A DNA stretch of 64,000 nucleotides from Escherichia coli (GTDB taxonomy: Bacteria > Pseudomonadota > Gammaproteobacteria > Enterobacterales > Enterobacteriaceae): NCBI RefSeq assembly GCF_036507355.1, contig NZ_AP027878.1; one strand, 5' to 3'. Both the position numbers and the translations under genes were made by a program. Shown one piece after another: positions 41,379-41,953 of the stretch; the stretch's first letter is position 1, and each line of letters begins with the position of its first letter. The notes under the pieces were generated by a model, which was given only the letters and a program-made list of their open reading frames with translations, made no database searches and was not told where the DNA came from.

Positions 41379-41815
41379 CCAGAATAATTGAGTAACGACT
41401 ATTATTTAACCAGCAAAGTAACTTTTAATTTTTTTTCTTCTCCCATTGATTTTTGTGCACAGCTTATCTGCCTTGCCGTGCGCAGAATCAACTTTTTTCT
41501 TCCTGATTTATCCACAAAGTTATGCACTTGCAAGAGGGCCATTTTCTAAATATTGTGATGCTTCACAAATGAAATGAATTTTGATTAATGAAGATAAGGA
41601 GAAAATTTGAGATGCAATCATGACGTTAATAGATAGGGTCTGCATTACAGACCCCACCCGCATCAAGGAATTAGCCGTTCCCTGATGTTGTTCCGAAAAC
41701 ATGTGCCGTAAGCTCACGTTAACGACTTTCTTTCACCGAATCCAACTATATAAGGGTTGGGTTTCTACGTCAACGTGAGCAAGTGCTCCTTTACATTTGA
41801 CAAGGAACCACCTTA

Positions 41816-41953
41816 ATGACTGCTTTTTTTCAGTTCCTGAGTGCATTTTTAGATGCGCCTGTTATTAGCCAGATTCTGGCTATTATCCTCATCATCGTTT
41901 TGATTTTGCTTTTAAGGTCAGTAAAAAATGGAATTATGCACTGGCTTACTTAA
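41816..41953 (+). CDS. Small hydrophobic peptide (45 aa)
   Basis: ATG preceded by AAGGA; MTAFFQFLSAFLDAPVISQILAIILIIVLILLLRSVKNGIMHWLT; sits in a 650-bp AT-rich intergenic gap. Confidence 0.35.
   Translation: MTAFFQFLSAFLDAPVISQILAIILIIVLILLLRSVKNGIMHWLT

What the first reader, a model, noticed from the sequence alone, without database searches (positions are those of the whole stretch)
41700..41953. Small hydrophobic ORF with its own promoter-like inverted repeat in a 650-bp AT-rich gap
A 45-aa mostly hydrophobic peptide is preceded by an AAGGA ribosome-binding site and a 13-bp inverted repeat (GCTCACGTTAACG / CGTCAACGTGAGC) enclosing a TATATA element. Small membrane peptides with tightly controlled promoters are typical of type I toxins and phage Kil-like proteins.
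Basis: inference. Interest (0 to 1): 0.45.

Follow-up and report, generated by a model that had tools for sequence, protein, structure and literature searches.

The report
Hidden small membrane-peptide gene in P1
A 45-codon gene for a tiny membrane peptide, absent from the reference annotation of phage P1, is real and conserved. It lies behind a long folded RNA leader that also contains a promoter firing the opposite way, which is the layout of an antisense-controlled, type I toxin-like module, but toxicity has not been tested.

Summary
The window is a phage P1-type plasmid-prophage. The finding lies in the 650-bp AT-rich gap between hot and pmgV.

The ORF is a real gene. It is intact in 227 of 228 P1-like plasmids with a match and in four diverged lineages. 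Only its frame shows a coding signature: variable sites by codon position are 13/3/14. The reference genes upfM and upfN on the opposite strand do not hold up.

The inverted repeat is not the ORF's promoter. It covaries as a hairpin in plus-strand RNA, within a roughly 250-nt leader. That leader probably starts at a host-derived nrdA-like promoter with DnaA boxes, the only plus-strand candidate upstream.

The TATATA and the right arm form the best sigma-70 match in the gap (TTGACG-17-TATAGT), but on the minus strand, so its RNA is antisense to the leader. This promoter may also drive hot.

The architecture matches a type I toxin-antitoxin locus. There is no homology to any known toxin, Kil protein or Rfam RNA, and no transcript or toxicity data exist. 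Interest is moderate.

The parts
41491..41556 (+). Host-derived nrdA-like promoter. DnaA boxes are TTATCCACA (41508-41516) and TTATGCACT (41520-41528); the -35 is TTGCAA (41528-41533) and the -10 is TATTGT (41551-41556). The inferred transcription start is about 41563.
   Evidence: GenBank M95666 annotates it as an 'nrdA-like promoter' with a dnaA box on this strand. The homologous E. coli stretch lies just upstream of nrdA in the same orientation, with its -10 114 nt before the nrdA ATG. It is the only plus-strand sigma-70 candidate of 8/12 or better between 41400 and 41815. Its -35 is invariant and its -10 is 5/6 invariant in four lineages.
41563..41815 (+). Inferred 5' leader of the ORF45 mRNA, about 253 nt. 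It contains the most conserved block of the gap (41590-41781).
   Evidence: Against the most divergent P1-type lineage, the block is 89.6% identical, ORF45 is 77.5% identical, and the flanks are about 66% identical with indels. The consensus fold has three compensatory pairs; controls with the pairing partners slid by 1-3 columns have none. The whole-transcript fold has z = -3.9. The 5' end is inferred, not mapped.
41595..41623 (+). Strong Shine-Dalgarno sequence (TAAGGAG, 41595-41601) followed by AUG at 41612. The mini-ORF is AUG-CAA-UCA-UGA in P1 and P7, and AUG-UAA (start-stop) in the two divergent lineages. Its stop overlaps the ATG at 41620.
   Evidence: The sequence is invariant or nearly so in four lineages. 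In the consensus fold, 41609-41621 pairs with the ORF45 start region 41816-41828, but single-sequence folds reproduce this in only two of four lineages. Its function is unexplained.
41636..41654 (.). Stem-loop GGGTCTG-CATTA-CAGACCC. It lies in the region shared by the plus-strand leader and the predicted minus-strand RNA.
   Evidence: The pair T41639-A41651 becomes C-G in the PC-NDM34 lineage, a compensatory change, and is A.A in the L119 lineage.
41661..41687 (.). Stem-loop CATCAAGGAA-TTAGCCG-TTCCCTGATG. It is a perfect 10-bp helix, with one G.U pair, only when read on the minus strand; on the plus strand the same position is an A.C mismatch.
   Evidence: Three substitutions fall in the 7-nt loop. 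The stem is kept, with an A-U to G-C compensatory change in L119.
41712..41780 (+). The outer stem is 41712-24 / 41768-80 and the inner stem is 41738-47 / 41755-64 (10 bp, three of them G.U on the plus strand). A 13-nt single-stranded internal loop lies at 41725-37.
   Evidence: The repeat is confirmed. Pair A41716-T41776 becomes T-A in L119. Three one-sided C-to-T changes (41713, 41742, 41774) each give G.U on the plus strand but A.C on the minus strand. The only unpaired cells are at the closing pair.
41745..41773 (-). Minus-strand sigma-70 promoter TTGACG (41773-41768), 17-nt spacer, TATAGT (41750-41745), embedded in the hairpin. The predicted start is about 41738, reading toward hot.
   Evidence: This is the best promoter match in the gap (10/12). 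It is the only minus-strand candidate with all 12 hexamer positions invariant in four lineages. The P1 record predicts it as PupfN. The repeat's single mismatch (A41721 x C41771) is the base that makes the -35 TTGACG rather than TTAACG, read directly from the sequence.
41625..41738 (-). Predicted minus-strand RNA, antisense to the ORF45 leader. It is either a short RNA of about 110 nt ending after the 41636-54 stem-loop (tail UAUCUAUUAA) or the 5' part of a lysogenic hot mRNA.
   Evidence: It folds into three stem-loops at -44 kcal/mol, z = -4.2. The terminator scan reports no canonical terminator. There are no transcript data, so both ends are inferred.
41802..41806 (+). Shine-Dalgarno sequence of ORF45 (AAGGA in P1 and P7; GAGGA in the two divergent lineages), 8-9 nt before the ATG.
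   Evidence: It is kept in all four lineages inside an otherwise poorly conserved stretch (66.7% identity). It is predicted to be mostly base-paired in the full leader, with unpaired probability 0.22-0.31.
41816..41953 (+). ORF45, a 45-aa single-pass membrane peptide with a basic C-terminal tail.
   Evidence: The same start is kept in four lineages. Variable columns by codon position in codons 2-33 are 13/3/14 (P = 0.003). Amino-acid similarity is retained at P = 0.0004 in this frame only, and every other frame has stops. dN/dS is 0.35-0.45. RefSeq calls it WP_000123562.1 and phage JL22 calls it gp107. It is full length in 227 of 228 plasmid records with a match.
41950..41972 (.). An 11-bp perfect palindrome (TTAATGTTTCA G TGAAACATTAA) overlapping the ORF45 stop codon.
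   Evidence: Found. It is not conserved in the divergent lineages and has no U-tract. It probably has no conserved role.
41998..42016 (.). Conserved motif TTTTCTGTATGTGCTGGTG, 3' of ORF45.
   Evidence: It is conserved in all four lineages, including two that lack pmgV. Its function is unexplained.

Best explanation
ORF45 is a genuine P1 gene for a 45-aa single-pass membrane peptide. It is organised like a type I toxin-antitoxin locus.

Shown:
- The peptide is under purifying selection.
- The inverted repeat behaves as a hairpin in plus-strand RNA.
- The only plus-strand promoter candidate upstream is a copy of the host nrdA promoter with its DnaA boxes.
- A strong, fully conserved sigma-70 promoter lies inside the hairpin on the opposite strand.

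Inferred:
- The mRNA starts near 41563 and carries a roughly 250-nt folded leader that keeps the Shine-Dalgarno sequence and AUG of ORF45 mostly base-paired.
- The minus-strand promoter makes an RNA that starts near 41738. Its single-stranded 5' tail (GGUGAAAGAAAG) is complementary to the single-stranded internal loop of the leader hairpin (41725-37).
- Pairing of the two RNAs would then repress translation or trigger decay of the ORF45 mRNA.
- When ORF45 is expressed, which the captured nrdA promoter would tie to DnaA and replication status, the peptide inserts into the inner membrane and harms or modulates the cell.

The last step, toxicity, is the least supported.
For: Coding:
- The start codon, Shine-Dalgarno sequence and the first 33 codons are kept in four lineages.
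- Variable sites by codon position are 13/3/14 (P = 0.003).
- A test that reshuffles the observed substitutions gives P = 0.0004 in this frame only.
- The ORF has no indels, while both flanks have them.
- It is full length in 227 of 228 plasmid hits.
- It is strongly hydrophobic with a basic tail.

Leader RNA:
- The block 41590-41781 is the best conserved part of the gap.
- Three compensatory pairs lie in three helices, against none in the slid-partner controls.
- Three one-sided changes in the repeat hairpin are G.U-compatible on the plus strand only.
- The small plus-strand ORFs of 21 and 25 codons inside the leader show no coding signature.

Promoters:
- The nrdA-like promoter points toward ORF45 and is the only plus-strand candidate.
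- The minus-strand TTGACG-17-TATAGT scores 10/12 and is invariant.
- The weaker promoter (8/12) on the peptide side and the stronger one (10/12) on the antisense side match the usual type I arrangement (established knowledge).

Other:
- The translation start region is predicted to be occluded in all four lineages.
- The module travels with a theta/hot gene into a mobile element that is not P1.
Against: - No transcript, translation or phenotype data exist for either strand.
- The antisense promoter's conservation cannot be separated from conservation of the hairpin it sits in.
- The minus-strand RNA has no canonical terminator. It may simply be the lysogenic hot mRNA: hot is reported to be expressed in lysogens, according to the title of Chikova & Schaaper 2007 as cited in PMC4713147.
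- There is no homology to any known type I toxin or antitoxin RNA.
- dN/dS of 0.35-0.45 indicates only moderate constraint, and the C-terminal tail is replaced in L119.
- The long-range helix that would sequester the AUG is reproduced by single-sequence folding in only two of four lineages.
- With only four lineages, covariation statistics are thin.
- P1 already has the phd-doc addiction module.
- CRISPRi knock-down of upfN and upfO had no effect on lytic growth. Deletion data cited in the same paper list upfM, upfN and upfO as non-essential (PMC10695390).
Confidence: 0.45

Rival explanations
1. ORF45 is a real but harmless small membrane protein: an accessory or regulatory peptide expressed with the host nrd regulon. 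In this reading the minus-strand promoter inside the hairpin is simply the lysogenic promoter of hot. Antisense overlap with the ORF45 leader is then incidental, or at most mutual transcriptional interference.
For: - The coding and leader evidence is the same as for the best explanation.
- hot lies 360 nt downstream of the minus-strand promoter with no canonical terminator between them.
- hot is reported to be expressed in lysogeny as well as lytic growth (title cited in PMC4713147), which needs a promoter other than the late one. This is the only fully conserved minus-strand candidate.
- The module always travels with a theta/hot gene.
- IS1 insertions that replace the C-terminal tail are tolerated.
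- Many small membrane proteins are not toxins (established knowledge).
Against: - A roughly 250-nt structured leader that occludes the translation start, together with a strong cis-antisense promoter, is unusual for harmless small proteins and typical of type I toxins (established knowledge).
- The two stem-loops in the overlap region pair best on the minus strand. They are followed by a conserved UAUCUAUUAA tail, which is compatible with a discrete short RNA.
Confidence: 0.33
2. The conserved function lies only in the RNA or regulatory region, for example a long regulatory leader or attenuator for hot. ORF45 is transcribed little or not at all and is not translated, and its conservation is a by-product.
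For: - The upstream block is more conserved than the ORF (89.6% against 77.5%).
- dN/dS is only moderately below 1.
- Random mutation keeps the frame open in 32-47% of simulations.
- The reference P1 annotation does not call the ORF.
Against: - Second codon positions are depleted among variable sites (3 of 30; P = 0.003).
- Amino-acid similarity is retained in this frame only (P = 0.0004).
- The Shine-Dalgarno sequence and ATG are conserved inside a poorly conserved stretch.
- The ORF has no indels although both flanks do.
- The G.U pattern shows that the hairpin just upstream functions in plus-strand RNA.
Confidence: 0.08
3. The inverted repeat is an operator, bound by a dimeric repressor, that tightly controls a plus-strand promoter (TATATA as -10) immediately upstream of ORF45.
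For: - Symmetric co-variation of the two arms (A-T to T-A in L119) is also what a palindromic protein site would show.
- TATATA lies between the arms.
Against: - No plus-strand -35 exists at the right distance, and no plus-strand site of 8/12 or better exists there.
- The half-sites are 43 bp apart.
- The three one-sided changes are all C-to-T transitions that keep G.U pairing on one strand. That pattern is expected for RNA, not for a DNA-binding site.
- The inner stem has three G.U pairs that are mismatches at the DNA level.
- No C1, LexA or other known operator motif was seen (sequence inspection).
Confidence: 0.05
4. The reference annotation is right. The genes of this gap are upfM, upfN and upfO on the minus strand, and ORF45 is a spurious antisense ORF.
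For: These genes are annotated in AF234172 and NC_005856. upfM has its own PHROG family.
Against: - upfM is absent, and upfN is truncated to 31 aa with a different start, in the divergent lineage.
- Both show flat codon-position variation: 11/9/12 for upfM and 9/8/9 for upfN.
- Minus-strand frames across ORF45 contain stop codons in both P1 and L119.
- RefSeq's PGAP pipeline calls ORF45 and not upfM.
- The PHROG family matches only at near-identity, as expected for a family built from P1-like annotations.
Confidence: 0.03

Closest known systems
hok/sok (and pnd, srn, flm) plasmid type I toxin-antitoxin loci
   Same: - It lies on a plasmid-type replicon.
- It encodes a membrane peptide of about 50 aa.
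- The mRNA has a long, highly folded leader, and the translation start region is predicted to be occluded.
- A strong antisense promoter sits inside the leader region.
- A small upstream translated element (Shine-Dalgarno sequence plus mini-ORF) might act as mok does.
   Different: - There is no sequence similarity to Hok, and no Rfam hit to Sok or hok mRNA.
- No overlapping mok-type reading frame exists.
- No conserved 5'-3' fold-back pairing was found.
- The antisense overlap lies 78 nt or more upstream of the ORF rather than at a leader-ORF start site.
- The promoter is a captured nrdA promoter.
- Killing has not been shown.
ldr/rdl and zor/orz chromosomal type I loci of E. coli
   Same: The antisense RNA gene overlaps the 5' UTR of the toxin mRNA rather than the coding region. 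The toxin is a small single-helix peptide with a basic C-terminus.
   Different: There is no Pfam or Rfam match. The leader is longer, about 250 nt.
E. coli nrdAB promoter region
   Same: Both DnaA boxes, the -35 and the spacing are homologous to the E. coli region. Across the aligned upstream stretch, identity to E. coli is 80% for the P1 type and 95% for the P7 type, in the same orientation relative to the downstream transcript.
   Different: Homology ends at the -10. The nrdA leader and its NrdR-box region are replaced by the P1-specific leader.
Phage Kil-type proteins (lambda Kil, Rac KilR, P1 KilA/Icd)
   Same: They are small, phage-encoded, potentially host-damaging proteins under tight control.
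   Different: The Kil proteins are soluble division inhibitors, not transmembrane peptides (established knowledge). There is no sequence match.
Small bacterial inner-membrane regulatory proteins (AcrZ, MgtS, MgrB class)
   Same: They are 30-50 aa single-pass peptides, often missed by annotation.
   Different: Those are not usually paired with a cis-antisense promoter and a 250-nt structured leader. No homology was detected.

Membership tests
Type I toxin-antitoxin systems (class definition) | Small (under 60 aa) hydrophobic peptide with a predicted transmembrane helix | tested here: met
   The peptide is 45 aa with GRAVY 1.62 and a best 19-aa hydropathy window of 3.08. The hydrophobic core is conserved in four lineages.
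Type I toxin-antitoxin systems (class definition) | An antisense RNA gene overlapping or adjoining the toxin mRNA | tested here: inconclusive
   A 10/12 sigma-70 promoter on the opposite strand lies inside the leader and is invariant in four lineages. The predicted RNA is well folded, z = -4.2. There is no canonical terminator and no transcript data, and the promoter could equally be the hot promoter.
Type I toxin-antitoxin systems (class definition) | Toxin mRNA with a structured 5' UTR that limits translation | tested here: inconclusive
   The leader structure has three compensatory pairs. The Shine-Dalgarno sequence has unpaired probability 0.22-0.31 in all four lineages, but its pairing partner differs between lineages. 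The 5' end is inferred from promoter homology only.
Type I toxin-antitoxin systems (class definition) | Peptide is toxic when over-expressed, and the RNA neutralises it | not testable with these tools
   This needs inducible expression and antisense-promoter mutants.
Known type I toxin families (Hok/Gef, Ldr, Fst, TisB, Ibs, ShoB, Zor, DinQ) and their RNAs in Rfam | Sequence or profile homology of the peptide or of the RNA | tested here: not met
   Pfam, NCBIfam and PADLOC give no relevant hit at E of 1-10 or below. Rfam at E of 10 or below gives only chance-level hits.
Phage Kil proteins | Homology to the lambda Kil, KilR or KilA families | tested here: not met
   There are no Pfam or PHROG hits to such families. 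The only PHROG hit is phrog_1184, of unknown function, at E = 0.056.
nrdA-type DnaA-box promoter | Homology to the E. coli nrdA upstream region, including the DnaA boxes and -35/-10, in an orientation that drives the downstream transcript | tested here: met
   The match lies directly upstream of nrdA on the same strand. The aligned hexamers are TTGCAA-17-TATCTT in E. coli and TATTGT in P1. M95666 annotates it the same way. Promoter activity itself was not tested.
P1 reference genes upfM / upfN | Reading frame conserved, with a coding substitution pattern | tested here: not met
   The frames are lost or truncated in the divergent lineage. Codon-position variation is flat.

The most novel reading that the evidence does not exclude
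Phage P1 and its plasmid relatives carry a second, unrecognised post-segregational or stress module. It would be a new family of type I toxin: a 45-aa membrane peptide whose mRNA is driven by a captured host nrdA promoter, so that expression reports DnaA and replication status. An antisense RNA made from a promoter built into the mRNA's own leader hairpin would hold it in check. The module would move between mobile elements together with a DNA polymerase III theta homologue.
Probability: 0.3. Interest if true: 0.65.

Novelty: new member of a known kind. Interest (0 to 1): 0.5.

Why it matters
- P1 is one of the most studied phages, and its phd-doc module founded the idea of plasmid addiction. 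A conserved small gene missed by the reference annotation, which instead lists three doubtful ORFs on the other strand, would correct the P1 map.
- If the type I-like reading holds, P1 gains a second, RNA-controlled host-affecting module.
- The captured nrdA promoter suggests that a phage-plasmid listens to the host's replication-initiation signal. This can be tested directly.
- The case also shows a compact design in which one inverted repeat serves both as an RNA hairpin on one strand and as the housing of a promoter on the other.

Tried and rejected
- Rfam scan of 41200-42200 at E of 10 or below gave only chance-level hits.
- Pfam, NCBIfam and PADLOC gave nothing. The PHROG hit phrog_1184 is weak (E = 0.056) and has no known function.
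- A remembered resemblance to the Ldr toxin motif failed a BLASTP test.
- The word-indexed protein search and the 1.84-billion-protein HMMER search returned only truncated or IS-fused copies, the L119 fusion call, and one unrelated repeat protein.
- Searches for more lineages found none beyond the four:
  - The viral-contig pattern and peptide scans returned the same 54 contigs.
  - The genome-contig scan gave one chance hit in a planctomycete MAG.
  - The metagenome scan gave 19 contigs and no new variant.
- A plus-strand promoter at or near the repeat, using TATATA or the TTTACA/TTGACA motifs at 41790-41802, was rejected. There is no usable partner hexamer and it is not conserved (sequence inspection).
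- A local anti-Shine-Dalgarno hairpin (UCCUU/AAGGA) exists in P1 but is not conserved in the divergent lineages.
- The long-range helix 41609-21 / 41816-28 appears in the consensus fold but in only two of four single-sequence folds. It is kept as a weak lead only.
- Pairing of the conserved 3' motif with leader 41654-63 is 9/10 in P1 but 6/10 in the divergent lineage, so it was rejected (sequence inspection).
- LexA-box and NrdR-box readings of local motifs were rejected as poor matches (sequence inspection).
- The 21-codon and 25-codon plus-strand ORFs, and upfM and upfN, show no coding signature.
- The P1 genome paper (PMC523184) and the hot expression paper (PMC2072811) are not held in the library.
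- The P1 transcriptome papers that are held do not mention this region.
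Full report
**Where this is**

The 650-bp gap at 41379-42028 is 99.7% identical to phage P1 (AF234172 / NC_005856). It is 100% identical to an E. coli P1-type plasmid, and the window runs in reverse orientation relative to the P1 map. The gap lies between hot, a DNA polymerase III theta homologue (41115-41378, minus strand), and pmgV (42029-42391, minus strand).

The reference annotation fills the gap with three minus-strand ORFs of unknown function:
- upfO, 41402-41542
- upfN, 41520-41717
- upfM, 41733-41846

It also lists several predicted promoters and the late promoter LPhot. NCBI's PGAP pipeline does call that ORF in many P1-type plasmids, as WP_000123562.1 'hypothetical protein'. Phage JL22 lists it as gp107. 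No paper in the held library mentions it.

**Checking the observation**

Everything described is present.
- The 45-aa ORF is at 41816-41953.
- AAGGA is at 41802-41806, 9 nt before the ATG.
- The inverted repeat GCTCACGTTAACG / CGTCAACGTGAGC is at 41712-24 and 41768-80. It is 12/13 complementary with 43 nt between the arms.
- TATATA lies inside the repeat.
- The gap is AT-rich, at 33-42% GC against 46-55% in the flanks.

A repeat of that quality appears in 4.3% of dinucleotide-preserving shuffles of the gap. On its own it is only mildly unusual.

**Is the ORF a gene?**

The region exists in four lineages:
- the P1 type
- the P7 type (two amino-acid changes in the peptide)
- a divergent P1-plasmid type (PC-NDM34 and SWHEFF67; 60% and 58% peptide identity to P1, respectively)
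- a fourth type, found through a 106-aa fusion gene call (P0005), on contigs that are not P1

In the fourth type the module sits between a theta/hot homologue and an H-NS-like gene. It lies next to type VI secretion Vgr and TsiV genes, and the flanks resemble large conjugative plasmids. Scans of viral, genome and metagenome collections found no further lineage.

All four lineages keep the ATG, a Shine-Dalgarno sequence (AGGA) 8-9 nt upstream, and an open frame of 42-45 codons. The ORF has no indels in the P1-type lineages, although both flanks have them.

The substitution pattern is that of a coding sequence:
- Across codons 2-33, variable alignment columns fall 13/3/14 on codon positions 1/2/3. 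The depletion at position 2 has P = 0.003.
- The observed P1-versus-L119 substitutions were reassigned to random sites. The result preserved amino-acid similarity as well as the real sequence in only 0.04% of trials in the ORF45 frame.
- In every other frame that figure was 21-79%, and each of those frames contains stop codons.
- dN/dS is 0.35-0.45.

The C-terminal tail is less constrained. It is replaced after a 20-nt deletion in L119. It is also replaced by IS1 ends in two independent insertions.

In contrast, upfM is absent and upfN is truncated in the divergent lineage. upfM, upfN and the 21- and 25-codon plus-strand ORFs inside the leader all show flat codon-position variation.

I conclude that ORF45 is a real protein-coding gene and that upfM and upfN are probably not.

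The peptide is very hydrophobic, with GRAVY 1.62 and a hydrophobic core at about residues 14-33. It has a basic C-terminal tail.

**What the inverted repeat is**

The most conserved part of the gap is not the ORF but the block 41590-41781 just upstream. Against the divergent lineage this block is 89.6% identical, the ORF is 77.5%, and the flanks are about 66%.

The hairpin has a 10-bp inner stem (41738-47 / 41755-64) and a 13-nt single-stranded internal loop.

Across the lineages, changes inside this hairpin fit RNA pairing:
- One double change keeps a pair: A41716-T41776 becomes T-A.
- Three one-sided C-to-T changes occur at 41713, 41742 and 41774. Each gives G.U on the plus strand and would give A.C on the minus strand.
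- Only the closing base pair is ever broken.
- The inner stem already has three G.U pairs that exist only on the plus strand.

Two further hairpins upstream each carry one compensatory change: 41636-54 (T-A to C-G) and 41661-87 (A-U to G-C). Substitutions otherwise concentrate in their loops and spacers.

In total, three of 59 predicted pairs are compensatory, against none in six controls where the pairing partners were slid by 1-3 columns. The covariation score was reached by 4 of 500 shuffles. With four lineages this is modest support, but it is consistent.

So the repeat is best read as an RNA hairpin in a plus-strand transcript that runs into ORF45.

**Where the plus-strand transcript starts**

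Between 41400 and the ORF, the only plus-strand sigma-70 candidate of 8/12 or better is TTGCAA-17-TATTGT at 41528-41556. Its -35 is invariant in all four lineages.

GenBank M95666 annotates this as an 'nrdA-like promoter' with a dnaA box on this strand. The E. coli chromosome has the homologous stretch directly upstream of nrdA in the same orientation. That stretch includes both DnaA boxes, the same -35, and a -10 (TATCTT) 114 nt before the nrdA ATG.

Homology to nrdA stops at the -10. The P7-type copy is 95% identical to the E. coli sequence and the P1 type is 80% identical, which suggests exchange with the host.

By homology, the ORF45 mRNA would start near 41563 and carry a roughly 253-nt leader. 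This start site is inferred, not mapped.

**The promoter inside the hairpin**

The best promoter match anywhere in the gap is on the minus strand. It is TTGACG (41773-41768), a 17-nt spacer, then TATAGT (41750-41745), scoring 10/12. The P1 record predicts the same promoter as PupfN. It is the only minus-strand candidate with all twelve hexamer positions invariant in four lineages.

The repeat's single mismatch is the base that makes the -35 read TTGACG rather than TTAACG, and this mismatch is kept in all lineages. That is a small hint that the promoter itself is under selection. The hint is an inference from the sequence.

Transcription would start near 41738 and run toward hot, antisense to the ORF45 leader. 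The first 120 nt fold into three stem-loops, with z = -4.2. The 41661-87 helix is perfect only on this strand. No canonical terminator follows.

This RNA could be a short antisense RNA. It could also be the 5' part of a lysogenic hot mRNA, since hot is reported to be expressed in lysogens (title cited in PMC4713147; the paper itself is not held). It could be both.

**How it most likely works**

The arrangement is that of type I toxin-antitoxin loci such as hok/sok, ldr/rdl or zor/orz (established knowledge). It has:
- a small membrane peptide
- a weak promoter (8/12) on the peptide side
- a long folded leader in which the Shine-Dalgarno sequence is mostly base-paired, with unpaired probability 0.22-0.31 in all four lineages
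- a strong cis-antisense promoter (10/12) inside that leader

The predicted single-stranded 5' tail of the minus-strand RNA is complementary to the single-stranded internal loop of the leader hairpin, which is a plausible site for the two RNAs to begin pairing (inference).

I therefore put about 45% on an antisense-controlled membrane peptide that damages or modulates the host. I put about 33% on a harmless small membrane protein whose neighbouring minus-strand promoter simply serves hot. Smaller weights go to the other rivals.

**Unexplained features**

- A conserved strong Shine-Dalgarno sequence with a start-stop or 3-codon mini-ORF lies at 41595-41623. In the consensus fold it pairs with the ORF45 start, but single-sequence folds reproduce this in only two of four lineages.
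- A conserved motif lies 3' of the ORF, at 41998-42016.

**Comparison with known systems**

The peptide matches no Pfam, NCBIfam or PADLOC family. It has only a weak hit to one PHROG of unknown function. A remembered likeness to Ldr failed a direct test. No Rfam family matches either strand.

It is therefore not a member of any known toxin or Kil family. It resembles type I systems in architecture only.

CRISPRi knock-down of upfN and upfO did not affect P1 lytic growth, and upfM was not tested in that screen. Deletion data cited in the same paper list all three as non-essential (PMC10695390). This is uninformative about ORF45, because such deletions would remove the peptide or its promoter together with the antisense promoter.

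**Verdict**

The ORF is a real, conserved, unstudied gene. The 'promoter-like inverted repeat' is an RNA leader hairpin that houses a promoter for the opposite strand. The toxin idea is plausible but unproven. I rate it a new member of a known kind, of moderate interest.

Noticed in passing
window 41402-41846 (minus strand): The reference P1 genes upfO, upfN and upfM look unlikely to be real. upfM is absent and upfN is truncated in a divergent lineage. upfM and upfN have flat codon-position variation. PGAP does not call any of the three in the plasmid record checked.
   Followed up: yes
window 41410-41556; L007 (P7-type plasmid); L117 (E. coli nrdA upstream): The P7-type copy of the nrdA-like promoter region is 95% identical to the E. 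coli nrdA upstream region. The P1-type copy is 80% identical and the divergent type 72%. This suggests relatively recent recombination between the phage-plasmid and the host chromosome at this promoter.
   Followed up: partly
L119 4503-6231 (also L118, L120-L123): The module (theta/hot homologue, nrdA-like promoter, leader and small ORF) also occurs outside P1. There it lies between type VI secretion Vgr/TsiV genes and an H-NS-like gene. The flanks are about 83% identical to large conjugative plasmids. In that lineage the three plus-strand ORFs are fused into one 106-aa gene call (P0005), probably as a by-product of the compensatory change that removes a stop codon. The host organism was not identified.
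   Followed up: partly
L145 738-1566; L138; proteins P0003 and P0001/P0002: IS1 has inserted into the 3' end of ORF45 at two different codons in two lineages. The resulting tails end ...VMTPTY, which is the IS1 end read in frame. Other frameshifted or truncated copies also exist. This could be an AT-rich insertion hot spot or selection against the intact peptide.
   Followed up: partly
window 41595-41623: A strong, invariant Shine-Dalgarno sequence (TAAGGAG) is followed by an AUG. The AUG opens a 3-codon ORF in P1 and P7 and a bare start-stop (AUG UAA) in the two divergent lineages. The stop overlaps a further ATG (ATGA). Its role in the leader is unexplained.
   Followed up: partly
window 41998-42016: The motif TTTTCTGTATGTGCTGGTG, 45 nt downstream of the ORF45 stop, is conserved in all four lineages, including those that lack pmgV. 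It is not a LexA box, and its possible pairing with the leader is not conserved. It remains unexplained.
   Followed up: partly
window 41950-41972: A perfect 11-bp palindrome overlaps the ORF45 stop codon in the P1 and P7 types but is not kept in the divergent lineages. No canonical terminator separates the convergent ORF45 and pmgV genes.
   Followed up: partly
window 39299-40362: doc, phd and humD, followed by lxr (40536-41108), lie just left of hot, as in P1. The small gene therefore sits in a cluster of genes for replication, DNA repair and plasmid addiction.
   Followed up: no
protein P0006: An unrelated 87-aa database protein carries three tandem copies of FYRSVKNAIMHFL. This resembles the ORF45 C-terminal tail RSVKNGIMHWL (E = 6e-5). 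It is probably chance or a translated repeat.
   Followed up: no
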